Origin: an uncultured Planctomycetota bacterium
Lineage (GTDB): Bacteria > Planctomycetota > B143-G9
Reading direction: 5' to 3'
Length of the DNA: 64,000 nt
Assembly (NCBI GenBank): GCA_964571525.1
Contig: CAZNBY010000001.1
Coordinates: forward strand, 90,329 to 154,328
Both the position numbers and the translations under genes were made by a program. Of this stretch, positions 5,357 to 64,000 are shown piece by piece; position 1 is the stretch's first letter, and each line of letters starts with the position of its first letter. The notes beneath the pieces were generated by a model that was given only the letters and a program-made list of their open reading frames with translations, had not been told where the DNA came from and searched no databases.

Positions 5357-7584
5357 TGCCTTCCAGCCTTTTCTCTATGCCGCCCGACACGCGGGGGGCG
5401 AATGCCGAATTTCTTCATCTTGTTATAAAGCGTTGTGCGGCTGACTCCAAGTTCGTCCGCCGTCAAAGAGCAATTCCACTTGTTGGCCTTTAACTTTGAG
5501 ACCAACAGATCCTTCTCAGGCGCGGCTAAAGCGGTCTTCAGAGTCTGAAGATCAATCTGATGCTCATCTTCTGCCGGTGCAACGGCAATCTTCAGGTCCT
5601 TCGGTTCGATATGCGTTCCGCGCGCCAATATCACAGCCTGCTCAATCACATTTCTCAGTTCGCGAACATTTCCCGGCCAAGAGTAGTTCGTAAGAGCACG
5701 AACCGCGGTATCCGAAAGCTTGACAGACAATCGCTTATGAACTGTAGCGAACTGCTCAACAAAGCTGTTTGCAAGCAGTGGTATGTCTTGCCGTCTTTCG
5801 CGAAGTGGTGGTATCGGTATTGATACCACATTTAGGCGATAGAACAGGTCAGAACGGAACTCACCTCGAGCCACAGCCCTGTTCAGATCGCTGTTTGTCG
5901 CCGCAATGACCCGCGCGTTAGATCTCAGCACCCGGGTAGAACCTACAGGCTCGTATTGACCATCTTGCAGAACACGCAACAACTTTGTTTGCACTTCAAT
6001 AGGTAAATTGCCTATCTCGTCGAGAAATATTGTGCCGCCCTTCGCAAGTTCAAACCGCCCTGCTCTATCCTTGATCGCGCTTGTGAACGATCCCTTAACA
6101 TGGCCGAACAGCTCGCTTTCAAGCAAATTTACAGAAAGAGCGCCGCAGTCAACCTTAACAAAAGGCGCATCCTTAACAGGCGAACTGTAATGAATAGCCC
6201 TGGCGACAAGCTCTTTGCCTGTGCCGGTTTCTCCAGTTATCAAAACGGTCGCGGTCGTATTTGAAATGCGGTCAATCATTGAGAAGACAGACTGCATTGC
6301 TTCTGAACGACCGATTATGGTCACATTTCCGAATCTGTCAGAAAGCTCTGCACTAAGCAGAGATACCCTTTCAGCCAATAACTCGCGCTCACGATTAAGC
6401 TCCTTGGCCTGCGTTATCGCCTCGGTAACATCAAGGGCTGAACACAGAAACTCGGGCTTGCTTGCGCGTATTTCTACGGGCGCGGCAGAGATCGAAAGCA
6501 CCTTTCCGTCGAGCAGCGCAATCTCGGCTCTTGCGGTGCCATCGCTCGCGTTCAATCTGCCCATCAGGTCGCGGAACTCTGCTTTTGAAGTCGCTTCCTC
6601 CATGTTAGTAATCAGCTTGCCATCCAAGGTCTTTAGCAACTCGGCGCATCTGCCGTTCAAAGGATCAATGTCACCCTTGTGCGACATAAAGAAGAAGGCT
6701 TCTGCCGCGTTCTCTACTACCTGTCTGAAGCGCTTTTCGGCAGTTGAAAGAGTCTGACGAGCCTTGCAGCGCTCTAAGACCGCGCCAATTAGCAAGGCAA
6801 GCTCTGATGCTGCCGAGCGTCGTTCTTGCCCAAAAAGACCTGATTCACGGCGCAGAAACAAGGCTCCCTCAACTCCTGCGCCCCGCATAACTGGTATAAG
6901 AATTTCATCTGAGGCTGGCTGCGATTCGCCAATCATCTGCGCGACAGAGCGAATACGCTCAAAATCCACAAAGCCGCCTTCAGCCGATGTTGCAAACCCG
7001 CGATTAAGTATTGGCTCGATTGCTCCGTTTTCGACAAGAAGAAAATCGGCAAAATCGGCCTCAAAAGCCGTCTTAACATCGCTTGTGATAACCTCTGCAA
7101 CAGCTCGTATGTCCTCTGCTGCGTTAAGAGCCTTCGCGATGCGATAAAGAGCCGCGACTTTCTCCTTCTCCTTAAAAAGCCGTTCGTGAAGCCGCTTAAG
7201 GCGCATGCCCACCTTAACGCGTGCCAAAAGATCATCGAGCCGAAATGGCTTAGTAAGAAAGTCATCCGCGCCAAGCTCGATTCCGAAATCGCGGTGAGAA
7301 CTTGAAAGCGCGGTTAAAAGTATAACGGGAATATATGGCCGTCCCTCCATCGCCCTTATGCGCCGCAGCGTTTCAAAGCCGTCCATGCCCTCCATTCGCA
7401 CATCTAAAAGAACGATGTCGAAATCTTCGCGGCTTAGCTGATCCATTGCCTCGAAACCTGATTTGACAGCAACAGCCTCATAGCCCTGAGATAAAACAGC
7501 CTCGGCGGTCAAGCGGCAGGCATCGCTCTCGTCATCAACGACGAGAACACGACCCAAAGCGCTCTGGCGAGGCTTTATCAACAT
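5353..7584 (-). CDS. Sigma-54-dependent response regulator (REC + sensory domains + AAA+ sigma-54 activator + Fis-type HTH)
   Basis: Canonical receiver (VLVVDDESD, LLDVRMEGMDG, LLTA, TKP); Walker A TGETGTGKE; GAFTGA-like GHVKGSFTSA; C-terminal HTH LTADELGVSRTTLYNKMKKFGI. Confidence 0.9.
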   Translation of the reverse strand: MLIKPRQSALGRVLVVDDESDACRLTAEAVLSQGYEAVAVKSGFEAMDQLSREDFDIVLLDVRMEGMDGFETLRRIRAMEGRPYIPVILLTALSSSHRDFGIELGADDFLTKPFRLDDLLARVKVGMRLKRLHERLFKEKEKVAALYRIAKALNAAEDIRAVAEVITSDVKTAFEADFADFLLVENGAIEPILNRGFATSAEGGFVDFERIRSVAQMIGESQPASDEILIPVMRGAGVEGALFLRRESGLFGQERRSAASELALLIGAVLERCKARQTLSTAEKRFRQVVENAAEAFFFMSHKGDIDPLNGRCAELLKTLDGKLITNMEEATSKAEFRDLMGRLNASDGTARAEIALLDGKVLSISAAPVEIRASKPEFLCSALDVTEAITQAKELNRERELLAERVSLLSAELSDRFGNVTIIGRSEAMQSVFSMIDRISNTTATVLITGETGTGKELVARAIHYSSPVKDAPFVKVDCGALSVNLLESELFGHVKGSFTSAIKDRAGRFELAKGGTIFLDEIGNLPIEVQTKLLRVLQDGQYEPVGSTRVLRSNARVIAATNSDLNRAVARGEFRSDLFYRLNVVSIPIPPLRERRQDIPLLANSFVEQFATVHKRLSVKLSDTAVRALTNYSWPGNVRELRNVIEQAVILARGTHIEPKDLKIAVAPAEDEHQIDLQTLKTALAAPEKDLLVSKLKANKWNCSLTADELGVSRTTLYNKMKKFGIRPPRVGRHREKAGRQ

Positions 7585-11300: not shown

Positions 11301-12697
11301 CGAAGATTCGTCGTAATTCATCTGATTCAAAGTTCACCACCATCTGCCCTGTTGTTATCACCGATAACGATTATTCGTGGATAGTCTGCTATTTCCCCGA
11401 TCATCCAAAGCTCGCTGAAGCACCGATTTTCGAGGAAGTGATTCTTTGCTCTGTTTACGGCGCGCCTCCACCCACCGGCGAATCAATTGCTATTAGCTCG
11501 GTGATTTTCTTCGATCCGTCGAAATTAAGCCGATTCGCTTCCCTAAGCAAGAGCGAGATCACTGTGACAAGGGATGGCGTGGCCATTGCTGGAATAAGCG
11601 AGGCAAAGGTGCGCAATGTTGAGACATTCCTTATCAGCCTGAAAACGCCTAAAAGCCCGCCGCCACCATCAAATGTTACCGCAACCCTGCGCGATTCGCT
11701 TATCGAGTTCGCTTTCGACCGACCCTTGACGCCATCTGAGCTTGCTGTAAAGATCGGTGAACAAGAGTTTTCGTGGAGACTTTTTCGCTTCAAGGATGGC
11801 GCAAAGACGGCGATGCTTGAGCGTGATGAGGTCTTCAACTCAACTGCAAACGGTGTGAAATGGACTGCAAAGGTCGGTTCTAAGACTGTTGGCGATGGTG
11901 TTCTTGATTTTCAAGCCGCCCGCCCACCCGCAATTCGGCGTGCAATGGTGATTCCTGAAGACTCGCTTGTATTCGAGGACTACGAATACGGTATGGGCAC
12001 TGCAGGTTCTCGCGGAACTCCTATCTTCCTCGCCAGCGCGTTTCCCTTTATGGGTTCATCCTATATTGAAAATCTCGACCCGGCAGCCGGAAGCGTGATG
12101 GGGTACCTTGTTCGCGCTAACATTGATGCTGTCAGGTATCCCAACATGAGCTTTGCCTGCCGCTTGAATAAGGCTCTGGTTAATCTTCACTTCAAATGCG
12201 AGGGGCACTTTAAGGATGTCGCCATATCGCCAAGCGATGTAAAGCAAGGCAAATCCTATTGGACTCAGGGTGTGTTCGGCGAGTTAGCTGGCATACGCGA
12301 TAATGATCGTTGGCAGACAGTGAAGTTCAAGATTCTTGATAAGCTGCAAGGCACGCCTTTCAACGGCAAGTACTTTATCACCGAGATTGCGATAGACACC
12401 TTCAAGAAGTCAGAGCCCGGCGGTTCGATTTGCATTGACAACCTTTGCATCTATGGAGACCGCTCGACATATTACACTGTGGTTGTCGAACCTCCTGCAG
12501 GATTGGATGCCAAGACCAAATTCGCTTATGAGTGGTGGTTTGTGGACGCGACAAACAGACCATTGTCGCTATCTCAGCTATCTAAGCTTGAGCGTTTTCG
12601 TGCCGATATACCCGATACAAAACCTGCCAAGATTAGGGTTAGGCTTCATATAAACGGTGAGATGTCGCAGGCGATAACAGATCTTGAACTTCCGTAG
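8351..12697 (+). CDS. Giant secreted protein (1448 aa) with repeated concanavalin-A-like / DUF1080-like beta-sandwich modules
   Basis: Start moved to ATG 8351 (MTRTARRVFLLLLCTCACFLTYIPNLRA signal peptide) because the track ORF 7949 start overlaps the HIT gene antisense; repeated G-x-W-E/F modules (GEWTQICGKWEFDQ, FGNWEIASRW). Confidence 0.6.
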   Translation: MTRTARRVFLLLLCTCACFLTYIPNLRAEDLQTPPSLIPYPPGAEIFFRDSFMREKPEEGEWTQICGKWEFDQMAKPGVSANPFSVVGSSKDEAMLVTGYDWWRNYYFNAALRTPPIYNSFGVVYCFRGRQNFVFFGFSQKDGLVLQLTLNGSDKQFAVEKKFAVPYQWYDVGIAISGKTVVAMLDRRPVFTVELPFELSGKAGVRVTGAPDYGMTVDDCSATGFKYDRDAMLADSKNGFSLLLASDRLSKPKFPVFFERDRLMRKWASADADWYPFEVPTVAEGEQPQPPTSYSFPLPMFNDIAMQVKLPGLVWEPYIELRKQKADGVIGDSILRVQFIPKGKLYTVICALPNGKELINVPDVTGQDGIVEVFCTGDKITFGAVNGAKYSETVSQLARELNNGVRVIISREMFEVVKFGNFNLDSSSFFEDTFYNSPSNWMTVFGNWEIASRWACNPIYTYLSSWDRMSSQLYCKHLFGGDVYCEVWFSPKMASLSRPSYYPIQWFSVSNPSVAGDLSTGYTCAIATPDSDSMSLFYNGKSISTTKLRGAMSGGNLHHTWFHLLQTRLSNRLSYDLNFIDERDDPRIFTVEDKRKQDLKPQPFAIWNSLTGLTVTRVRLTAREIVWGGMNKSLYNRMPTPCGVKTSVQNPSDPFEFIAPSYDFSKGSAGWYVSSSQPAIITSPYPNDNNRTGIAVTSPFCGSRMEFVSPDMSVDSRVYQNLTVKYRTDVSLDLYIHSGSRKFRVPLDSDKKAETLDWAIPVGKRYYTKSKAGGYDSVKIDLVQMFEEYQTLDIPPIIDKLTFERIDDSDESLGVTSRDKMFFAVSEVAFSSPFKPEVNDQTAPLFSGDPQQNDSVREFVSGYRQNKVVLTPEFAATSLPKQGEKKIYERAGAIILEFTDGMQKLSPIGAVDETLLWRKRENKENLLIAHKSGRFGFFGVKVLPEPVTSDQYPAMAIKLKGNTDLLCLGVKAGDWQWIPLKTGSKIRRNSSDSKFTTICPVVITDNDYSWIVCYFPDHPKLAEAPIFEEVILCSVYGAPPPTGESIAISSVIFFDPSKLSRFASLSKSEITVTRDGVAIAGISEAKVRNVETFLISLKTPKSPPPPSNVTATLRDSLIEFAFDRPLTPSELAVKIGEQEFSWRLFRFKDGAKTAMLERDEVFNSTANGVKWTAKVGSKTVGDGVLDFQAARPPAIRRAMVIPEDSLVFEDYEYGMGTAGSRGTPIFLASAFPFMGSSYIENLDPAAGSVMGYLVRANIDAVRYPNMSFACRLNKALVNLHFKCEGHFKDVAISPSDVKQGKSYWTQGVFGELAGIRDNDRWQTVKFKILDKLQGTPFNGKYFITEIAIDTFKKSEPGGSICIDNLCIYGDRSTYYTVVVEPPAGLDAKTKFAYEWWFVDATNRPLSLSQLSKLERFRADIPDTKPAKIRVRLHINGEMSQAITDLELP

Positions 12698-55589: not shown

Positions 55590-56996
55590 TCAGAACTTGA
55601 TGTTGGCAAGGAAGTTATCAACCTCGGGTATGCCGCCCTGGAAGACAAGGTAACCATTTGAAGGCTCGCCCTCGGTGATATCGTGGCAGATGGGGTTCAA
55701 CATGATCTTCTTAACTTCCTCGCGGTCCTCTGTCTGGCCAAGTGCCCAGCCGAGCTTCATATAGGCCGTCTCGGGCAGCATGTTCGCGCACTGCACAACG
55801 CCCAGCTCAAGAAGGTCGCGCCCCGTATCGTACACAAACATCTGCACAAAGCCCCACAGCGTCTGCACGGTCATATAAATATGCATGCCAGAGTCAACGG
55901 CGCGCTTAAGCGCGGGATTGAGCTTACGGTTCACATGCCCAAGACCCGTGCCAGCTATGATAAGTCCCTTGTAACCGTTGTCGCGCAACGAGTCAACAAG
56001 GTCGGGGTCCATGTTCGGGTAATAATATAGTATCGAGACGCGGTCGTTAAAGGTCGGCATGAGCTTCATCTTGCGGCTCTTGTCGCGCCTCTTGTAGTCG
56101 TTCTGTATTGGCTTTATCCAGTTAGGCGACACCATGCCCAGCGGCGTATCACCAATCGTGCGGAATGTAGAACGGTATGACGAGTGCATCTTGCGCACCC
56201 TTGTGCCCCTGTGCAAAAGGTCGTACTGGTCGCTTGTCGGGCCGAACATGCAAACCATCACCTCGGCAAAATCGCTCAATGCGGCGGTGCGAACAGCGTT
56301 GACCAGATTTATCGCCGCGTCGGAAGAGGGTCTGTCGCTCGACCTCTGCGAGCCCACCAACACCACCGGTACGGGCAGGTCTTGGCACATATATGTCAGA
56401 ATCGAGGCCGAATAGTGCATTGTGTCAGTCCCGTGGCCGATCACAATACCATCAACATCGTTCTGTTCTATTTCGTTGTAGATCTCTTGCGCGATGACCT
56501 TCCACTGCACCGAAGACATATCTTCAGAGAATATGCCGAAGATTTTACGCGTTCTCAAATTGCATATATCGGCAAGCTCTGGCACAGCGCTGTAAAGCTC
56601 ACCGGGTGAGAATGCCGGTATAACGGCACCGGTGCGATAGTCAAGGCGCGATGCGATAGTTCCGCCTGTGCCGAGCATGACAACATTGGGGCGGTTTGGC
56701 GAGTATGGGAACTCTTTTTCTGGTATCTTGTACTTGCCCTCTTTGAAGCCAGTTTCGCGAATATCAATTATGCTATTGACGGCGACACCGGTGTTGTAGC
56801 CCGTCGGCAGCTTCAACACAAGGTAACCATCTGGCGATTGCTCGGCGCGGGGCAAAATGATACCGACAAAGGTGCCTTGCATAGCGCGCACAACAACATC
56901 GCTCCAGACCTTAACGCCGAAGCGCTTCATGCACTCTATCGAGTCGCCTTTGTAACCTTTGTACAGCTCTTTTTCAGCTTGAGTTATCGTTGTCAC
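55590..56996 (-). CDS. L-asparaginase-fold protein with GatD-like N-terminal domain (Glu-tRNA(Gln) amidotransferase subunit D-like)
   Basis: Asparaginase motifs TGGTIAS and HGTDTM; about 100-aa N-terminal extension (GYLVLKLPTGYNTGV) resembling archaeal GatD; start set at GTG 56996 with GGAGA RBS. Confidence 0.6.
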   Translation of the reverse strand: MTTITQAEKELYKGYKGDSIECMKRFGVKVWSDVVVRAMQGTFVGIILPRAEQSPDGYLVLKLPTGYNTGVAVNSIIDIRETGFKEGKYKIPEKEFPYSPNRPNVVMLGTGGTIASRLDYRTGAVIPAFSPGELYSAVPELADICNLRTRKIFGIFSEDMSSVQWKVIAQEIYNEIEQNDVDGIVIGHGTDTMHYSASILTYMCQDLPVPVVLVGSQRSSDRPSSDAAINLVNAVRTAALSDFAEVMVCMFGPTSDQYDLLHRGTRVRKMHSSYRSTFRTIGDTPLGMVSPNWIKPIQNDYKRRDKSRKMKLMPTFNDRVSILYYYPNMDPDLVDSLRDNGYKGLIIAGTGLGHVNRKLNPALKRAVDSGMHIYMTVQTLWGFVQMFVYDTGRDLLELGVVQCANMLPETAYMKLGWALGQTEDREEVKKIMLNPICHDITEGEPSNGYLVFQGGIPEVDNFLANIKF

Positions 56997-57191
56997 GACA
57001 TCTCCACTGTTGGGTGATGAACGGGGGCAAACCGCCATTCTACCGGCCGTTAGGGCGCGCGCAACTAAAAGCGGGGGCGGGGAAAGGGGGGAAGTGCAGC
57101 TTCCTTTGTTGACAATATAAAATCAACGCTAAAATACATTCATCAGCATGATTTCGCGTCGAAGGCTTTCTCGCACTACAGTTACGCTATA

Positions 57192-57222
57192 CCTAAGACT
57201 GTATTTTTACACTAGTCTTAGG
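57192..57222. repeat. Perfect 9-bp inverted repeat (CCTAAGACT-N13-AGTCTTAGG) 30 bp upstream of the DUF262 gene
   Basis: Read directly; lies in the 5' leader/promoter region of the 57254 CDS. Confidence 0.6.
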
Positions 57223-57253
57223 AATAATCTCTTACCCAAAACCGGAGATTCCA

Positions 57254-59212
57254 ATGCAGGCCAAAGAGACTAAGCTACAAGACATGATCGAAGGTACTAA
57301 GCAATATGTGGTTCCTCTTTTCCAAAGAACATACAGTTGGTCAGAAACACATTGGGAAACCCTTTGGAAAGACATCTGCGATATCTATGAGTCTGATTCG
57401 AGAAAGAGCCACTTCATTGGTTCTATCGTAAGTATGCAGACTACATCTGTACCGCAAGGTGTATCAAAGTTCCTTCTAATCGACGGGCAGCAGCGGCTAA
57501 CCACAATTTTTATCATCCTTACTCTCCTGCGGGACAAAGCGAATTCAAACAATAATACTGTATTTGCTGAAGAAATAGCAAACACATTGCTTGTTAACCC
57601 ATACAAAAAAGACTACGACTATTTCAAGCTCTTGCCTACACAACACGACCGAGACAATTATAAAGATCTTATTAATGGAACACTGTCAACCTCTAACAAC
57701 CGCATTTCTCGTGCATACCGCTATTTTGATAATAAATTAAAACAAACTGATTTTGACATTGAAAAGCTAAAATCAATTATTTCAAGTGACCTTTCTGTTG
57801 TCAGTATAACTCTCGACGCTGATGATAACCCATATCTTGTTTTTGAAAGCCTAAACGCAAAGGGAAGTCCTCTTACGCAGGCAGACCTGATCAGAAACTA
57901 CTTGTTCATGCGGATTCATGTTAATGACCAAAACGCAATTTTTGATAAATATTGGCATCCCATGCAAACAGCATTAGACGATAAACTCACAGAGTTCATT
58001 CGCCACTATTTAATGGATAAGGGAAGCGTTATTCGTCAATCTGATGTATATTTTACCATTAAGGAGGCGGTATCTGCTGACAATGTTATTGATTACATGA
58101 AGCAAATGCATATATATTCACAATATTATAGTCGCCTGCTTAATCCTGACGAGGAACCTGAATCGTCCATAAGAAAATATCTTAAGCGTTTGAATATAAT
58201 CGAGGTGACAACAGCATATCCATTTCTGCTTAGGATGTATAATTATTATGGATGCGGAACAATCAGTAGAAGTGATTTCGTCCAAATATTATCTACCACG
58301 GAGAACTATTTAATCAGGCGTCTAATTTGCCATGTCCCAACAAATCAGCTTAGTCGTATTTTCGCTTCTTTATACCCACAGATTAAAGGCATCGCTGGCC
58401 CTAATATACCAAAAGAATATGAGAGTCTTCTTGTAATGAAGCAATATCCACGAGACTCTGAGTTTCGCGCAAAATTTAAGGAATATAGATTTTACGCTGC
58501 TGGTGAGCGGGCGGCAAGGGCGAAATTGGTACTTGAATCAATAGAGAACAGCTTTGGGCATAAGGAACACATTGATTACAATAATGTTTCTATTGAGCAT
58601 ATCATGCCTCAGGTATTGACATCTGAATGGCGGAAGGACCTTGGTGATGAAGCACAAGATATACACAGCCTTTTGCTTCATACTATCGGCAACTTGACGC
58701 TCACAGCATATAATTCGAATCTATCAAATAGCGAGTATCCATCCAAGAAGAAGGTATATCTGCAGAGTCATCTTGAAATTAATAAGTACTTCGATGGTGT
58801 TGATGTTTGGAATAAGGAGAGCATCGAAAAGCGAGCTGATGTGCTGGCCGGAATCGCAATGAGAATCTGGCCATATTTTGGAGTTGAATTTTCTGAACAG
58901 AGTGTTACAAACACAAAACCGAAATCTGTTCGAATATTAGGTCAAATATTTGATGTCGACTCATGGCGAGATGTGCTTGAATGCACGATGAACACCGTTG
59001 CGGAGCTTGAGCCTGCGAAATTTAACCGGATAATCAGTAGCTACCCCCGATATTTTAGCAAGCATCAGGACAAGTTGAGATGCGTGCGGAAGTTAAGAAA
59101 TAACCTGTTCTTAGAGGTTAACCTGTCCGCGAACGACATTCAAAGATTATGCCATCAGGCGATTCAGAGCATCGAACTCACTAGCGACGAGTGGTCCGTC
59201 GATTATGAATGA
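57254..59212 (+). CDS. DUF262 (ParB-like NTPase) + DUF1524 (HNH/His-Me finger) protein, GmrSD-like type IV restriction candidate
   Basis: N-terminal DGQQRLTT motif; C-terminal IEHIMPQ ... GNLTLTAYNSN nuclease-like motifs; gene is conspicuously AT-rich compared with flanks. Confidence 0.7.
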   Translation: MQAKETKLQDMIEGTKQYVVPLFQRTYSWSETHWETLWKDICDIYESDSRKSHFIGSIVSMQTTSVPQGVSKFLLIDGQQRLTTIFIILTLLRDKANSNNNTVFAEEIANTLLVNPYKKDYDYFKLLPTQHDRDNYKDLINGTLSTSNNRISRAYRYFDNKLKQTDFDIEKLKSIISSDLSVVSITLDADDNPYLVFESLNAKGSPLTQADLIRNYLFMRIHVNDQNAIFDKYWHPMQTALDDKLTEFIRHYLMDKGSVIRQSDVYFTIKEAVSADNVIDYMKQMHIYSQYYSRLLNPDEEPESSIRKYLKRLNIIEVTTAYPFLLRMYNYYGCGTISRSDFVQILSTTENYLIRRLICHVPTNQLSRIFASLYPQIKGIAGPNIPKEYESLLVMKQYPRDSEFRAKFKEYRFYAAGERAARAKLVLESIENSFGHKEHIDYNNVSIEHIMPQVLTSEWRKDLGDEAQDIHSLLLHTIGNLTLTAYNSNLSNSEYPSKKKVYLQSHLEINKYFDGVDVWNKESIEKRADVLAGIAMRIWPYFGVEFSEQSVTNTKPKSVRILGQIFDVDSWRDVLECTMNTVAELEPAKFNRIISSYPRYFSKHQDKLRCVRKLRNNLFLEVNLSANDIQRLCHQAIQSIELTSDEWSVDYE

Positions 59213-59378
59213 GCAACATGTTCTACGGCACAATGAGGCGGGAGGACTACAACCGGATCATCGAAGGCCAGTCTTAGTACTCTGTCAGAGTCTTTTGTCT
59301 ATGAGGCTCTGCGAGGCATTTACTCGCATCAGCATCAATGCGAGGTCCAATCGCCTGAATATGCGAAATGTACTGCCA

Positions 59379-60119
59379 CTACAACAGAGCACAGCATACT
59401 CCTGTCGGCATTTCATCCCAAGTTTGCCCTTCCAATAAACGCCCAGCCTTCTTTTTGTGAACCCCTCCCCATTGTTTGAAGAAGAACGGGACATTTGCAG
59501 CGACACACTGATCGCGTATATCCAATACCCACTTCTCTGACATTGGCCTTGCGCCTGGGCCAGATTCACCGCCAACTATCACCCAATCAATGCCTTCAAG
59601 GTTCAGGTTCGGTATCGGCCCGAGAAGGGGCTCTAAGGACAGGAATTTTAAAAACGCCCCTGTATTGCGAAGGTCGTCAATACGGTGTATGTAGTCTGCT
59701 GTTTCAACGCTCGTTCCCATCCAGATGTTGCTGGCCCAAGTCAGGGATTGGCTTAATTCGAGCGTTCTTTCCGGCCGCTTTGTCAGGATCTGAAATTGAT
59801 GCCAGTGTGCCCGGTTCATTACATCGAAGGCTCGTTCGATAAACCATACCGGCACATCTGCGTGAAACAGGTCGCTCATAGAATTGACAAAGATAACCTG
59901 AGGGGTTTTCCAATGCAAAGGTAATTCGAGTGTGCGTTCGTGTATTGTAAGACGAAAGCCATTTACATAATTAGCCTGCCCCATGGCTTGCAGTCGCTTG
60001 GCCATGCGCTCGGCGTAGCAGTGTTTGCAACCTGGGCTGACTTTTGTGCAGCCGGTTACAGGATTCCAAGTGGATTCAGTCCACTCGATTGAGGACTTAG
60101 TGCCCATGGTTCTCCCCAT
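59379..60119 (-). CDS. Phage Gp37/Gp68 family (DUF5131) three-Cys-motif protein
   Basis: N-terminal [27 protein letters not shown] signature. Confidence 0.55.
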
Positions 60120-60336: not shown

Positions 60337-62319
60337 TCACTCTTTGTCGGCATTAACTAATGCACCAATCTCTTCCATGCATCGCTCAGCAGTCTTTAGA
60401 GCACTGGCAACTATGCGTTGATGCTCAGCGATATCGGCTTTCAGTTCCGGCGAGTCTTCCTCTTCTTTCTTTATTCGGTTAACCCATTGAGCGTACTTAC
60501 TGTATGACTCTGGATACTCATCGGCAATCTGATCTATGCGTGCTTCGGAAATCGCTTTAAGTGCTTTATATTCTGCGCTTTGCGAGTACTCGTATAGGTT
60601 CCAAGGGTAGTTACCATTCATGACAAGGACTTTTTTGTACCAAGCAGATATACTGTTGTGCAGTATCATCGGTTCAACTTCAATTACTTTCGCGTCCTCT
60701 GCTGGTTCGATGCACAGAATCCCAACTGGGAACCGAGCCCCTTTATCCCTAACTCCTGAATATATTAGAACCGAGTAGAGTTTCGCCACACACTTATCGA
60801 ATCTATAGAATATCGCGGGAGAGAAATACCGTTGAACGGCCTCAGCATGAGTAGCGAAAAGCGTTACCCCGTTCGTTCCCCGCAGAAACCTGTGAACTTT
60901 ATCACCCGAATACTTTTGAAAGCCGTCGGTTGTGAAGTCGTATGATGTTTCATGCCCGATTTTTACTTGTTCACGCTTCCAATCAAACTGGAGCATACCG
61001 TACTTTCGGTTTATCCATTTGAAGGCGTCAAGATCTCCAAGTAGCGAAGGATGGCAACTCACATCCTTCTGCAGGCAGTCGTAGTTTCCCCTCGATAGGG
61101 AGTTTGTCGCTCCAATTATCGAAAATGCCATGGGATATACATGGTCAGACTCAATGCGAGTGTCTTGCTTACCAATAGGTGTGAAGTCTCCAAGAAAAAG
61201 ACCCTCAGGAGCCTCATACTCCTCAAGCAGCTTCAGCCCAAAATCCATATTGCTGTATTTCTGCAGACATCTCTGCGTGTACATTTGCTTAATGAACAAG
61301 TCAGAGAACATGGCCTCGATCTTTGCGGGCGCAATTCCACACAGTTTCCCACCTATATTATAGAAGCACGAGAAGTATTTGCTCAGCGCTTTAAACGCTA
61401 CCGGCGTCGTGGAGTATCTGTTGTATAGGAGCACGCCGATTACCTGCATCTTGATCTCAGCGGTAAGGTTATCGAAGTCCACTGTGAAAACATGCCTTTC
61501 CTCTTCAATTTCAGCAATAAAATCCCTGCTGATAAAGTCGTTTAGAAACTTTGCCAGAAGAAAGTTATCCCCTGCAAAAGCCTCGACCGGTGGCTCAACA
61601 GGAAACACCTCTTTGAAGGCAACATGCTCGCATAGCCAAAGTGAGTGCGCGATTATTGCAGGGATTCCGACCGCCTGACCGAGTGATGCTTCCCAAGCCG
61701 AAAGCCTTTTTGAAAGTGAAGTCTCGGTCTCAGGCAAGTGAGAGGTTATCTTTCGCAGTTCATCATCGAAATCGAGTTTTGCATACGGATTATCTGTGAG
61801 TAGATAATACTCACACGCCAGAGGCAACCAATAGTCTTGGTCTAAATGCCCATCATTGCATATTTCATAACTGAGTAAGTTTCTCACAAACGAGCCGCGG
61901 CTCTTCAGATGAAACAGCAGAGTTTGTCTTCTTTCACCCTCCACTGCATCAATAGCGCTAAGCAGACATAAGTCGTAGCAGAATCGAAGCCAATGCATTT
62001 TTACAGGTGGGAAGACGATCCTGCCGGGAACATTCAAGACCCCGCCATCCATATCTCGTATTGGATAGTGGCCACTGCTTATCAATTGTTCGCCAATAGA
62101 AGCGAATCGTACATGCAGGACATGGGGAGACATCTCCCTCATTTCATCAAGCGTCGCAATAGACATCTCGGCTTTCATTGCCTTGATTAGTTTCGCGACC
62201 TGTTCAATTGAAGGTCTGTCGGTAAGCGACTCGAATACAGCCAATGCACTATCCTCGGCATGCGTGTTTGACAATGCCAGTACGACACAAATGAAGGATG
62301 CAAGTACGACCCGCTTCAT
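60337..62319 (-). CDS. Secreted hypothetical protein (660 aa), paralog of the next gene
   Basis: Signal peptide MKRVVLASFICVVLALSNTHA; shares block FSPAIFYRFDK with the 62710-64000 CDS (FRPAVYYKYER). Confidence 0.45.
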   Translation of the reverse strand: MKRVVLASFICVVLALSNTHAEDSALAVFESLTDRPSIEQVAKLIKAMKAEMSIATLDEMREMSPHVLHVRFASIGEQLISSGHYPIRDMDGGVLNVPGRIVFPPVKMHWLRFCYDLCLLSAIDAVEGERRQTLLFHLKSRGSFVRNLLSYEICNDGHLDQDYWLPLACEYYLLTDNPYAKLDFDDELRKITSHLPETETSLSKRLSAWEASLGQAVGIPAIIAHSLWLCEHVAFKEVFPVEPPVEAFAGDNFLLAKFLNDFISRDFIAEIEEERHVFTVDFDNLTAEIKMQVIGVLLYNRYSTTPVAFKALSKYFSCFYNIGGKLCGIAPAKIEAMFSDLFIKQMYTQRCLQKYSNMDFGLKLLEEYEAPEGLFLGDFTPIGKQDTRIESDHVYPMAFSIIGATNSLSRGNYDCLQKDVSCHPSLLGDLDAFKWINRKYGMLQFDWKREQVKIGHETSYDFTTDGFQKYSGDKVHRFLRGTNGVTLFATHAEAVQRYFSPAIFYRFDKCVAKLYSVLIYSGVRDKGARFPVGILCIEPAEDAKVIEVEPMILHNSISAWYKKVLVMNGNYPWNLYEYSQSAEYKALKAISEARIDQIADEYPESYSKYAQWVNRIKKEEEDSPELKADIAEHQRIVASALKTAERCMEEIGALVNADKE

Positions 62320-62709: not shown

Positions 62710-64000
62710 CTACCGCAACTCCTCAAGGTGGTACTTGTCGTAAAGCTTCTGCCATGCTTCGCGAAGCTTGCCGCCGGTTGTGTCGGTGTTTTCAAGGTTT
62801 ATTGCTTCTGCTCTATCGAAAATAGGCTTGTTGGCCTCGGCCTCTCTAAACTCCTTCGCGCTCCAAAGCATGTCTCTTCCGTTGGGGATGCCAGCACGGC
62901 AATACCACGCATTTAACCTGTAATATATCAGCCCGGCCTTAACCTCGCTTGCAGGTTCGTCACCCAACGGTGTAATCTCCACAACACAAGCGGCGTTGTC
63001 ATGCCAGCACAGGCTGGTGACCGAATAGTAGTCTGAAAGCACATAGATGCGCCACTTAGTACGCTCGTATTTATAATATACCGCTGGCCTAAAATACTGC
63101 TTGAATAACAGGTTGCCACCCATCTTATCGAGGTTGGATATGCCATTTAGAAACCGTTCGGCCCATCCGTCTGCTATCATCTCGCCAAGCGCTTCGGGAA
63201 AGACGGGCATCGCTTTGAACGCACTGCCCACAGTGCGTGTTCCTATGCATCTTGGCGGTTCATTCTCCTCGAAGTATTTTTGCGACCATTCGTAATGATC
63301 GAGGTCAAACAGCAGGGTCTCCAATGAAATGGTCTTTGTCTCAAGTCGGCTGCCCTTAAAATCGCCGCGAATATAGAAATATTGTGGGTGCACGAAGTCC
63401 CTTTCGATCTTGGGCACCATGTTTGGATCGTACTCGACTCCGCCACAAAACCACGCCGGACCCGATTCGCCTTCCTCCACAAGCCTAAGCTTATGTGATA
63501 CAGGCAGTTGTTTCGGCTTATAAAGGTAATCTAAAACCTTGTTCATAACAACCCTTGACGCTTGCATAGCTTCTGGCAACAACAGGTGTTCACGAACTGG
63601 CGAATAAAGGCCATTGCACAACATATTAGTCAGATCAGTGTTCATGCTTGACATGTTTTCCCAAATCTCATTGTCATCCATACGGGTGTAGAGCAGGTAG
63701 GATACGAGGAAGTACGCGCTTCGATTGTAACTTGACAGAACGCCTGTATTGGAGAATTGCTCAAGGATTTCATAGAAGACTTCTTTCTTTCCGTAATTGT
63801 CAACAAATGCCTTCAATGGTTGATTGAACGATGGTGGAAGCGCTTTTTCATCCAGATCTGTCACATCCTCAGGCGTGATGTTCACGAAGAACCATGACAT
63901 CAACGCGATATTCATGAAAATGTTGTTTGTGTTGTCGAAGTATAGCTTCTGCCATACTTCAAGTTGATTAGCCTTGTCACCTGTAATGTTCAGTGCATCG
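62710..64000 (-). CDS. Hypothetical protein, paralog of 60337-62319; 5' end runs off right window edge (partial)
   Basis: Track ORF starts at Met 63915, but hand translation shows the frame stays open upstream to position 64000. Confidence 0.45.
   Translation of the reverse strand, partial: DALNITGDKANQLEVWQKLYFDNTNNIFMNIALMSWFFVNITPEDVTDLDEKALPPSFNQPLKAFVDNYGKKEVFYEILEQFSNTGVLSSYNRSAYFLVSYLLYTRMDDNEIWENMSSMNTDLTNMLCNGLYSPVREHLLLPEAMQASRVVMNKVLDYLYKPKQLPVSHKLRLVEEGESGPAWFCGGVEYDPNMVPKIERDFVHPQYFYIRGDFKGSRLETKTISLETLLFDLDHYEWSQKYFEENEPPRCIGTRTVGSAFKAMPVFPEALGEMIADGWAERFLNGISNLDKMGGNLLFKQYFRPAVYYKYERTKWRIYVLSDYYSVTSLCWHDNAACVVEITPLGDEPASEVKAGLIYYRLNAWYCRAGIPNGRDMLWSAKEFREAEANKPIFDRAEAINLENTDTTGGKLREAWQKLYDKYHLEELR

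What the first reader, a model, noticed from the sequence alone, without database searches (positions are those of the whole stretch)
57192..59212. AT-rich single-gene GmrSD-like (DUF262/DUF1524) restriction candidate preceded by a perfect inverted repeat
The 652-aa CDS has the DGQQRLTT motif of DUF262 and a C-terminal DUF1524-type His-Me finger region (IEHIMPQ, GNLTLTAYNSN), the architecture of GmrSD/BrxU/SspE-type modification-dependent nucleases, plus about 100 extra C-terminal residues. Its base composition is visibly more AT-rich than the flanks (runs such as aattcaaacaataatactgtatttgctgaagaaatagc), pointing to horizontal acquisition. A perfect 9-bp inverted repeat with 13-bp spacer sits 30 bp upstream and could be an operator or RNA hairpin controlling a potentially toxic nuclease.
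Basis: partly seen in the sequence, partly recalled or inferred. Interest (0 to 1): 0.6.

Follow-up and report, generated by a model that had tools for sequence, protein, structure and literature searches.

The report
GmrSD restriction nuclease with SeqA-like tail
This is an intact, horizontally acquired, stand-alone GmrSD-type anti-phage nuclease gene, ordinary in kind, except that its unexplained last ~100 residues are predicted to fold like the DNA-binding domain of SeqA, the protein that reads methylated GATC sites, which points to a possible unrecognised DNA-sensor module.

Summary
ORF 57254..59212 (+, 652 aa) carries GmrSD_N/DUF262 (aa 9-218, E 5e-37) and GmrSD_C/DUF1524 (aa 398-532, E 1e-28), with every catalytic motif intact. 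Its GC is 0.398 against 0.497±0.019 for 42 other ORFs (z = -5.3). Its nearest relatives are only 57-60% identical and sit alone in unrelated neighbourhoods in several bacterial phyla. It matches PADLOC's validated single-gene defence HEC-06 over its full length (3e-92).

The 9-bp inverted repeat exists but is not beyond chance (about 7.5 such matches expected per window). It is not conserved upstream of homologues, and the leader does not fold unusually well. The host is a diderm bacterium, not an archaeon as its GatD-like neighbour first suggested. No close relative was found for an empty-site test.

The parts
57109..57135 (+). Possible sigma-70-like promoter, TTGACA-N15-TAAAAT (seen by eye only)
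   Evidence: Read from the sequence. The promoter scan lists nothing in the intergenic region because the spacer is 15 nt, outside its 16-18 nt rule. Unverified.
57192..57222 (.). Perfect 9-bp inverted repeat (CCTAAGACT / AGTCTTAGG) with a 13-nt AT-rich spacer; 13 nt with one mismatch if extended to 57188-57226
   Evidence: Not beyond chance; it forms the local hairpin in the predicted RNA fold, but the leader z-score is only -1.3; not conserved in homologue loci.
57244..57247 (+). Shine-Dalgarno-like GGAG, 6 nt before the ATG
   Evidence: Sequence. The start codon is confirmed by the conserved N-terminus MQAKETKLQD in 24 homologues.
57254..59212 (+). CDS, 652 aa: GmrSD-family NTPase-nuclease with a C-terminal SeqA-like domain
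57278..57907 (+). GmrSD_N / DUF262 (ParB-like NTPase) domain, aa 9-218; includes FQRxYSW (aa 23-29), DGQQR (aa 77-81, nt 57482-57496) and FESLNAKG (aa 197-204)
   Evidence: Pfam E 5.1e-37; the motifs are invariant in 25 sequences. In HEC-06 the alanine mutants Q79A and R80A in this motif abolish defence.
57908..58444 (+). Helical linker region, aa 219-397
   Evidence: No Pfam family. All-helical and the best-modelled part of the full-length prediction (pLDDT 80-96). Covered by the PADLOC full-length profiles.
58445..58849 (+). GmrSD_C / DUF1524 His-Me finger nuclease domain, aa 398-532; E448-H449 (nt 58595-58600), G479-N480, N487, N492, H506, N510 invariant
   Evidence: Pfam E 1.1e-28; invariance. 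The equivalent E471A/H472A mutants kill HEC-06 and N541A cripples DndI.
58901..59209 (+). C-terminal tail domain, aa ~550-652, SeqA-C-like fold; conserved W571, V574, T578, L614, E621, N623-x-S625-A626, C633, W647
59270..59277 (+). Third copy of AGTCTTAG, 58 nt after the stop codon; with 57193-57200 it forms an 8-bp inverted pair bracketing the low-GC segment
   Evidence: 4 copies in the window, 1.16 expected. Post hoc and unexplained.
59279..59297 (+). Weak hairpin ACTCT-gtc-AGAGT followed by CTTTTG; possible terminator between the convergent genes
   Evidence: Read from the sequence. Not reported by the terminator scan.

Best explanation
A stand-alone, horizontally acquired GmrSD-family (type IV-like) defence nuclease, closest in kind to the validated single-gene system HEC-06. 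Shown: the protein has an intact ParB-like DUF262 NTPase domain (DGQQR), a helical linker, an intact DUF1524 His-Me finger nuclease (EH...GN...N...H), and a conserved C-terminal domain predicted to have the fold of the SeqA DNA-binding domain. Inferred from the characterised relatives GmrSD, BrxU, HEC-06, SspE and DndI: nucleotide binding and hydrolysis by the N-terminal domain gates DNA binding and cutting by the His-Me finger, so that foreign, probably modified, phage DNA is cut while host DNA is spared. Inferred from the fold and from the company the domain keeps: the SeqA-like tail binds duplex DNA and helps select the target, possibly by reading a base modification as SeqA reads N6-methyladenine in GATC. 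The specificity is unknown. The gene needs no partner gene. Its low GC reflects a gene family that moves between phyla. The upstream inverted repeat is most likely incidental.
For: Domains and motifs. PADLOC full-length hits: 'Orf5' PDLC02693 at 1.7e-206 (aa 10-539), HEC-06 at 3.2e-92 (aa 1-540), mREase_IV at 3e-30. HEC-06 is an experimentally validated GmrSD-like defence that depends on the same motifs. The nearest solved relative is DndI, 9jfl, E 3e-14 over aa 11-540. Solitary in seven independent homologue contexts with no recurrent partner; neighbours include integrase and transposase fragments, toxin-antitoxin pairs and a type III RM system. Horizontal origin: GC z = -5.3; nearest relatives 57-60% identical, with the named ones in other phyla; the family is low-GC in every host examined. 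Tail: invariant positions across the family; as diverged as the nuclease domain, so an integral part of the protein; confident model; SeqA is the only strong structural match. The tail is also found with DUF4268, HSDR_N and Mrr_N, and as arrays of 3-6 copies. Its best-conserved loop, E-x-N-L-S-A, aligns tentatively with SeqA's N150-T-N152 DNA-reading loop, which SeqA needs for DNA binding.
Against: There is no experimental data for this protein or for any tail-bearing member. The SeqA link is structural only. Pfam's SeqA model hits 0 of 40 diverse tails. Profile comparison with E. coli SeqA is weak (probability 0.3; P = 0.003 and 10.7 bits). The residue mapping therefore rests on a low-confidence alignment, and SeqA N152 corresponds to Ser here. 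The fold match rests on a predicted structure, not a solved one. Characterised GmrSD enzymes work without such a tail, so it is not required for the basic mechanism. Whether modified or unmodified DNA is the target cannot be told from sequence. The N-terminal domain was poorly modelled, so the domain arrangement is unknown.
Confidence: 0.6

Rival explanations
1. A DndI/SspE-like enzyme. The nuclease attacks DNA that lacks a host-made mark such as phosphorothioate or a methyl group. The mark on host DNA stimulates the NTPase and releases the enzyme, so the system depends on a modification module elsewhere in the genome.
For: The closest solved structure by sequence is DndI (9jfl, E 3e-14), which works this way. 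SspE profiles hit the N-terminal domain. A SeqA-like reader could equally well sense a self mark.
Against: No dnd/ssp genes or DNA methyltransferases appear among the families listed for the 43 large ORFs of the window (for 35 of these ORFs only the top 25 families per library were displayed). Homologues sit alone in seven unrelated contexts; only one has an RM system beside it. The match to DndI is remote (48 bits). The phosphorothioate-sensing Tyr25 of DndI aligns with an invariant Phe23 here.
Confidence: 0.12
2. The C-terminal domain is not a DNA reader. It is an oligomerisation, autoinhibition or partner-docking module that happens to share a small alpha/beta fold with SeqA-C.
For: Sequence similarity to SeqA is at or below detection. 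BrxU, SspE and DndI all act as dimers whose assembly is regulated. The most conserved residues include buried-looking hydrophobics (W571, V574, L614, W647).
Confidence: 0.2
3. The upstream inverted repeat is a functional control element, either an operator for a repressor or a leader RNA hairpin, that limits expression of a toxic nuclease.
For: It lies between a possible promoter and the ribosome-binding site. It is the dominant local hairpin in the predicted leader fold. One homologue (L082) has an unrelated 11-bp inverted repeat at a similar distance. Its 8-mer recurs once more just after the gene.
Against: About 7.5 perfect 9-bp inverted-repeat matches are expected by chance in the window. 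The fold z-score is -1.3, and 20 of 200 shuffles fold as well. Seven homologue leaders share no sequence or positional equivalent. No regulator gene lies next to it.
Confidence: 0.15
4. The gene is a decaying or domesticated remnant with no defence role.
For: It is an outlier (57-60% identity) relative to a tight cluster of homologues.
Against: The reading frame is full length. All 200-plus positions that are invariant across the family are retained, including every catalytic motif. All domains are about equally diverged.
Confidence: 0.04

Closest known systems
HEC-06 (GmrSD-like single-gene phage defence; Payne et al. 2024 preprint, 10.1101/2024.01.29.577857)
   Same: A full-length match to four PADLOC HEC-06 profiles (best 3.2e-92, aa 1-540 against profile positions 7-565 of 569). 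Same DUF262-linker-DUF1524 layout. The same DGQQR and EH motifs, which mutagenesis shows HEC-06 needs.
   Different: The HEC-06 profiles end where the nuclease domain ends, so they do not cover the ~110-residue SeqA-like tail. HEC-06 was found embedded in Hma systems, whereas this gene is solitary between a GatD-like gene and a DUF5131 gene.
GmrSD / Eco94GmrSD and BrxU (type IV restriction enzymes for glucosyl-hmC, hmC and 5mC DNA)
   Same: Pfam GmrSD_N plus GmrSD_C, a DGQQR NTPase and a His-Me finger.
   Different: Only distant in sequence: BrxU (7P9K) is not recovered by phmmer against the PDB at E 0.01. There is no BREX context. The extra C-terminal domain is not among those catalogued for the family (DUF4268, DUF4357, DNA_binding_1) by Machnicka et al. 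2015.
DndI (PDB 9JFL) and SspE (6JIV): phosphorothioate-sensing GmrSD-like nucleases
   Same: The best solved sequence relatives (E 3e-14 and 2.5e-5). Same two catalytic domains.
   Different: No PT-modification genes nearby. SspE similarity is confined to about 90 N-terminal residues. The PT-sensing Tyr is Phe here. Neither has the SeqA-like tail: the match to DndI (596 aa) stops at query residue 540.
SeqA C-terminal DNA-binding domain (PDB 3FMT, 1LRR, 3SK7)
   Different: 11-14% identity, not detected by Pfam's SeqA model. No SeqA N-terminal oligomerisation domain. N152 corresponds to Ser. It is fused to a nuclease instead of acting in replication control.

Membership tests
GmrSD family (type IV restriction, Pfam PF03235 + PF07510) | N-terminal DUF262/GmrSD_N domain above the Pfam gathering score | tested here: met
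   128.4 bits against a cut-off of 33.2, aa 9-218
GmrSD family (type IV restriction, Pfam PF03235 + PF07510) | (I/V)DGQQR nucleotide-binding/hydrolysis motif | tested here: met
   I76-D77-G78-Q79-Q80-R81, invariant in 25 sequences
GmrSD family (type IV restriction, Pfam PF03235 + PF07510) | C-terminal DUF1524/GmrSD_C His-Me finger domain with a (D/E)H...N motif | tested here: met
   100.3 bits against a cut-off of 23, aa 398-532; E448-H449, N480, N487, N492 invariant
GmrSD family (type IV restriction, Pfam PF03235 + PF07510) | NTP-stimulated cleavage of modified DNA | not testable with these tools
   Needs purified protein and modified substrates
HEC-06 (PADLOC) | Full-length match to the HEC-06 profile HMMs | tested here: met
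   PDLC04154/04157/04155 at E 3e-92 to 5e-86, covering aa 1-541
HEC-06 (PADLOC) | Embedded within an Hma (or other multi-gene) defence system | tested here: not met
   The neighbours are a GatD-like gene, a DUF5131 gene and orphan ORFs; there are no Hma hits
BrxU | BREX-associated GmrSD homologue with close sequence similarity to BrxU | tested here: not met
   No BREX components among the neighbours; 7P9K is not among the PDB hits at E <= 0.01
SspE / DndI (PT-sensing) | Genetic linkage to sspABCD or dndBCDE modification genes | tested here: not met
   None among the window ORFs scanned or in seven homologue contexts. For 35 of the window ORFs only the top 25 families per library were displayed.
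SspE / DndI (PT-sensing) | Tyr in the N-terminal hydrophobic patch that senses phosphorothioate (DndI Y25, SspE Y30) | tested here: inconclusive
   It aligns with an invariant F23 in the PLFQR motif: aromatic, but without the hydroxyl
SeqA | C-terminal DNA-binding domain fold | tested here: met
SeqA | Match to Pfam PF03925 (SeqA C-terminal domain) by sequence | tested here: not met
   No hit for the window tail, and 0 of 40 diverse tails hit. Only the tandem-repeat proteins hit weakly.
SeqA | N-terminal oligomerisation domain and a role in origin sequestration | tested here: not met
   The tail is the C-terminal domain of a nuclease; no SeqA N-domain is present
SeqA | Asn150/Asn152 loop reading hemimethylated G-m6A-TC | tested here: inconclusive
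   Tentative register N623 to N150 and S625 to N152. N is kept in 78% and S in 74% (N in 13%) of 149 copies. Binding itself is not testable here.

The most novel reading that the evidence does not exclude
The SeqA-like tail is a previously unrecognised family of modified-DNA reader domain, possibly specific for N6-methyladenine or another adenine modification. Prokaryotic defence would have coupled it repeatedly to different nucleases: the GmrSD His-Me finger, HSDR_N-type PD-(D/E)xK domains, and Mrr_N- or DUF4268-containing proteins. This ~656-aa subfamily, which moves between phyla, would then be a GmrSD enzyme with a new kind of sensor, and perhaps a substrate class not yet known for GmrSD enzymes.
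Probability: 0.25. Interest if true: 0.7.

Novelty: new variant of a known kind. Interest (0 to 1): 0.45.

Why it matters
None of the GmrSD-family papers consulted here identifies a domain that reads the cytosine modifications cut by GmrSD, BrxU or HEC-06. The one sensing element they describe is the phosphorothioate-sensing Tyr patch of SspE and DndI. A large, widely transferred subfamily that carries a discrete domain with the fold of a known methyl-adenine reader offers a direct way to test this: delete or swap the tail and see whether specificity changes. If the tail does read a modification, it would add a new reader fold to those used by modification-dependent nucleases; SRA- and EVE/PUA-type sensors appear in the papers listed. 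It could also become a reagent for detecting that modification. For genome annotation, the result shows that a conserved ~100-residue module with no Pfam model, annotated 'hypothetical' where it is named at all, is present in at least 284 sequence clusters at the 50% identity level. If the tail is only a generic DNA clamp, the gene is an ordinary member of a well-known defence family.

Tried and rejected
1. Archaeal host. I assumed this at first from the GatD hit. I rejected it because GatD-like genes at 64-69% identity occur in many bacterial MAGs, and the window encodes a sigma-54 activator, ParAB and an alginate-export outer-membrane protein.

2. Empty-site (presence/absence) test. This failed three ways. 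The 80 gatD loci from the genome collection share no other neighbour with the window. The 660-aa neighbour has no relative in the metagenome collection. A wobble-tolerant gatD DNA pattern found two contigs, both distant (62-65% identity) and without synteny.

3. A multi-gene system with the neighbours. DUF5131 hits the PADLOC candidates PDC-M41B and PDC-M30B and also lies next to one homologue. But it is convergent here and absent from six other contexts. The 660-aa ORF has an apparent N-terminal signal sequence (read from the translation) and no hits in any library. Rejected as partners.

4. A conserved small downstream ORF. The 77-aa ORF at 59205..59438 and the small ORFs after homologues are unrelated to each other.

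5. Rfam, tRNA and terminator scans around the gene found nothing.

6. A conserved leader. Alignment of eight upstream regions shows 40% mean identity and nothing conserved beyond the start codon.

7. Sequence-level homology of the tail to SeqA. It is not significant by hhalign against a single sequence or by Pfam scanning of 40 tails.

8. Stand-alone tail proteins. These are mostly artefacts. P0131 is the third piece of a split GmrSD gene, and others come from contigs of 505-930 bp.

9. The afdb50 fold library was unavailable.

10. The origin of the PADLOC label 'Orf5' could not be traced.
Full report
**1. The observation**

The window has an ATG-initiated ORF at 57254..59212 on the + strand, 652 codons long. 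GGAG lies six bases before the start. The N-terminus MQAKETKLQD is shared by 24 homologues, which fixes the start codon. Pfam assigns GmrSD_N (DUF262) to aa 9-218 (E 5.1e-37) and GmrSD_C (DUF1524) to aa 398-532 (E 1.1e-28), both far above their gathering scores.

The gene's GC content is 0.398. The 42 other ORFs of at least 150 aa average 0.497 with sd 0.019, so z = -5.3. GC3 is 0.404 against 0.528 (z = -2.6). A synonymous-codon likelihood score is not unusual. In the sliding-window profile, GC falls to 0.36-0.41 between about 57250 and 58750, with flanks at 0.48-0.55.

The inverted repeat CCTAAGACT (57192-57200) / AGTCTTAGG (57214-57222) exists, with a 13-nt spacer, and ends 31 nt before the ATG. 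The description is correct in every point.

**2. The host**

The left neighbour (55590..56930, - strand) scores as GatD, a subunit of the archaeal Glu-tRNA(Gln) amidotransferase, and I first took the host for an archaeon. That was wrong. GatD-like genes at 64-69% identity are found in many bacterial MAGs labelled Aminicenantes, Ignavibacteria, Zixibacteria and others. The rest of the window encodes a sigma-54 activator, ParA/ParB, an alginate-export outer-membrane protein and HtrA-type proteases. The host is a diderm bacterium with no close relative in the collections searched. The protein itself is on record only from one 382-kb NCBI contig and one Logan contig.

**3. Family assignment and catalytic integrity**

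Against PADLOC, the protein matches full-length profiles labelled 'Orf5' (best 1.7e-206, aa 10-539) and HEC-06 (3.2e-92, aa 1-540). Matches to mREase_IV are weaker, and matches to SspE cover only the N-terminal ~90 residues. HEC-06 is a GmrSD-like single gene shown to protect against phages. Its Q79A, R80A, E471A and H472A mutants lose function.

In an alignment with 24 homologues, these positions are all invariant:
- FQRxYSW (aa 23-29)
- DGQQR (aa 77-81)
- FESLNAKG (aa 197-204)
- E448-H449
- G479-N480
- N487, N492, H506 and N510

The closest solved structure by sequence is DndI (9JFL; E 3e-14 over aa 11-540), followed by an unnamed DUF262 protein and SspE. The gene is therefore an intact member of the GmrSD superfamily and closest to HEC-06.

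**4. Genomic context and mobility**

The nearest relatives in a 5.8-billion-protein collection are only 57-60% identical, but they cover 100% of the length and are almost all 655-657 aa. The named ones come from Nitrospirae, Desulfamplus, Bacteroidota (Adhaeribacter, Ginsengibacter) and Patescibacteria. Among themselves these homologues are about 77% identical, so the window protein is a divergent outlier.

Seven homologue loci show no recurrent partner. Neighbours include housekeeping genes, integrase and transposase fragments, HigB/HTH and MazE/PIN pairs, Bro-N, AAA_14/DUF4143 and one type III RM system. The family is low-GC (0.30-0.42) in every host. It is 0.04-0.16 below its flanks in six of eight loci, and it matches the flanks in the two hosts that are themselves AT-rich.

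A direct empty-site test was not possible. The gatD loci share no other gene with the window. The lineage-specific 660-aa neighbour has no relatives in metagenomes. A wobble-tolerant gatD pattern found only two distant contigs.

**5. The neighbours are not partners**

The DUF5131 gene (59379..60119, - strand) hits the PADLOC candidates PDC-M41B and PDC-M30B. A DUF5131 gene also lies directly upstream of one homologue. Here, however, it is convergent, and it is absent from the other contexts. The 660-aa ORF begins with an apparent signal sequence (my reading of the translation) and has no hits in any library, and the 401-aa ORF likewise has no hits. No dnd, ssp, BREX or methyltransferase genes appear among the families listed for the window's ORFs.

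**6. The C-terminal tail, the main finding**

Residues ~541-652 lie beyond both Pfam domains and beyond the PADLOC profiles, and have no Pfam match of their own. They are conserved across the family, with invariant L562-G563-Q564, V568, W571-R572-D573-V574, T578, K589-F590, R612, L614, N616, E621, L624-S625, C633 and W647. They are as diverged from the homologues as the nuclease domain is (55% against 53% identity). That marks them as an old, integral part of the protein.

An exhaustive HMMER search with the tail alone against 1.84 billion cluster representatives found 284 clusters at E <= 0.001. Besides GmrSD-type proteins of 650-690 aa, the module occurs in these settings:
- between GmrSD_C and DUF4268
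- N-terminal to DUF4268
- with Mrr_N, a KAP NTPase and other domains
- after an HSDR_N-type nuclease domain, as four tandem copies (P0197, a solitary gene downstream of ilv genes)
- as three to six copies in proteins of 870-1150 aa (P0158, P0260, P0263)

The apparent stand-alone forms are mostly fragments or split genes. All named members are 'hypothetical protein'.

**7. How far the SeqA link goes**

At the sequence level the link is weak. Pfam's SeqA model hits only two of the tandem-repeat proteins; in P0158, the one I mapped, the hit (aa 822-876) lies inside a tail copy (aa 798-896). None of 40 diverse tails hits it. hhalign of the tail alignment against E. coli SeqA is not significant.

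A profile that includes the repeat copies aligns 87 columns at P = 0.003, and an HMM built from the repeat copies scores 10.7 bits. Both give the same register. In that register, 'ELEPAKF' matches SeqA 'SLDAQAF', R599 matches R116, and N623-L-S625 matches N150-T-N152. N150 and N152 form SeqA's DNA-binding loop, and the N150A/N152A mutant does not bind DNA. Over 149 tail copies, E621, N623 (N 78%, H 13%), S625 (S 74%, N 13%) and A626 make up one of the most conserved segments.

I therefore treat the fold as shown, on a predicted structure. Common ancestry is plausible. DNA binding is a reasonable inference. Modification reading is a hypothesis.

**8. Mechanism**

The following steps are shown by sequence: an intact ParB-like NTPase, an intact His-Me finger, a helical linker and a SeqA-like C-terminal domain.

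The following steps are inferred from characterised relatives. Nucleotide binding and hydrolysis in the N-terminal domain controls conformation or oligomeric state, and so controls DNA binding and cutting by the nuclease. Foreign DNA is distinguished by a chemical mark. Because the gene and its homologues are solitary, the simplest reading is a type IV, modification-dependent enzyme that needs no cognate modification system. The tail most likely supplies duplex-DNA binding and may read the mark.

The main rival is the DndI/SspE logic, in which a host mark switches the enzyme off on self DNA. It is disfavoured by the lack of linked modification genes, but it cannot be excluded by sequence. The PT-sensing tyrosine of DndI aligns with an invariant phenylalanine here.

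**9. The inverted repeat**

Perfect 9-bp inverted repeats with 3-30 nt spacers occur at eight distinct sites (15 registers) in the window, against 7.5 +/- 2.7 registers in Markov simulations. Several of the others lie in short gaps just after gene ends, where terminators would be expected. The leader RNA (57140-57270) folds at -26.6 kcal/mol with z = -1.3, and 20 of 200 shuffles do as well. Seven homologue leaders share no sequence and no equivalent repeat; one has an unrelated 11-bp repeat, and another carries only the terminator of the upstream gene. The consensus scan reports no promoter in the intergenic region, although TTGACA-N15-TAAAAT can be read by eye at 57109-57135. A regulatory role is possible but has no support beyond position.

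One oddity remains. The 8-mer AGTCTTAG occurs four times in the window (1.16 expected), and three of the copies surround this gene. The third is 58 nt after the stop codon, so the outer pair brackets the low-GC segment as an 8-bp inverted repeat. This is post hoc, it does not extend beyond 8 bp, and it could not be tested.

**10. Novelty and verdict**

As a GmrSD-family defence gene this is a known kind. The catalogue of extra domains in the family (DUF4268, DUF4357, DNA_binding_1, plus unassigned C-terminal regions) does not include a SeqA-like domain. No paper in the searchable library connects SeqA with DUF262, DUF1524 or GmrSD; the only co-occurrence is unrelated. The library is incomplete, so prior description elsewhere cannot be excluded.

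I rate the finding a new variant of a known kind, with moderate interest (0.45). The gene itself is ordinary. The tail gives a concrete, testable hypothesis about how one large GmrSD subfamily, and several other nuclease architectures, choose their targets.

Noticed in passing
window 55590-56930 (-): A GatD-like gene scores above NCBIfam's equivalog cut-off for the archaeal Glu-tRNA(Gln) amidotransferase subunit D (491 bits against 310), yet it lies in a bacterial genome with no GatE beside it. Relatives at 64-69% identity occur in many bacterial MAGs (Aminicenantes, Ignavibacteria, Zixibacteria and others).
   Followed up: partly
window 59379-60119 (-); L084 5302-5946; L085 3424-4068: A DUF5131 (phage Gp37/Gp68 family) gene hits the PADLOC defence candidates PDC-M41B and PDC-M30B at 1e-121 and 1e-116. 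A DUF5131 gene also sits directly upstream of one GmrSD homologue. This may be co-location in a defence island and not a functional pairing.
   Followed up: partly
window 60337-62319 (-) and 62710-63915 (-): Two orphan ORFs of 660 aa and 401 aa. The first has an apparent N-terminal signal sequence. Neither has a Pfam, NCBIfam or PADLOC hit, and the 660-aa protein has no relative in the JGI metagenome scan. Their GC (0.46-0.48) is slightly below the window mean.
   Followed up: partly
window 57193-57200, 57214-57221, 59270-59277 (and 11880-11887): The 8-mer AGTCTTAG occurs 4 times in the window (1.16 expected). Three copies bracket the GmrSD gene, and the outer pair forms an 8-bp inverted repeat around the low-GC segment. 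It may be an insertion border or a chance match.
   Followed up: partly
L082-L090 (homologue loci): The ~656-aa GmrSD-plus-tail gene is about 77% identical at the protein level across MAGs labelled Nitrospirae, Desulfamplus, Bacteroidota and Patescibacteria. It is low-GC (0.30-0.42) in every host, which implies frequent recent transfer between phyla.
   Followed up: partly
P0158 (L097 5001-8444), P0197 (L096 5001-7373), P0260, P0263: Proteins made of 3-6 tandem copies of the tail domain. P0158 (1147 aa, on a 3.2-Mb contig) has proline/alanine/lysine-rich linkers and is the member that weakly hits Pfam SeqA. P0197 has an HSDR_N-type nuclease domain followed by four copies and is a solitary gene after ilv genes.
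   Followed up: partly
L095 471-2449: A GmrSD-plus-tail gene called as three consecutive ORFs (GmrSD_N 438 aa, GmrSD_C 92 aa, tail 102 aa), either a pseudogene or assembly indels. This shows that the 'stand-alone' tail hits in the representative search are largely artefacts.
   Followed up: yes
window 1293-48844 (ORF not pinned): One ORF is a RhuM-family protein (Pfam 6e-106) and one ORF hits PADLOC candidate PDC-S05 at 1e-143; they are presumably the same ORF. Another ORF is a sigma-54 activator that hits the RtcR-like CARF_AAA_HTH profiles.
   Followed up: no
L082 about 5917-5956 (45-84 nt before the start codon at 6001): An unrelated 11-bp perfect inverted repeat (CTTTTTTCTGA / TCAGAAAAAAG, 15-nt spacer) lies upstream of homologue P0004, at a distance similar to that of the window's repeat.
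   Followed up: no
BFVD hit A0A2H4UTP0: A Bodo saltans virus methyltransferase (469 aa) contains a segment matching the tail fold (Foldseek probability 0.97, TM 0.55), a hint that SeqA-like modules may also accompany DNA methyltransferases in giant viruses.
   Followed up: no
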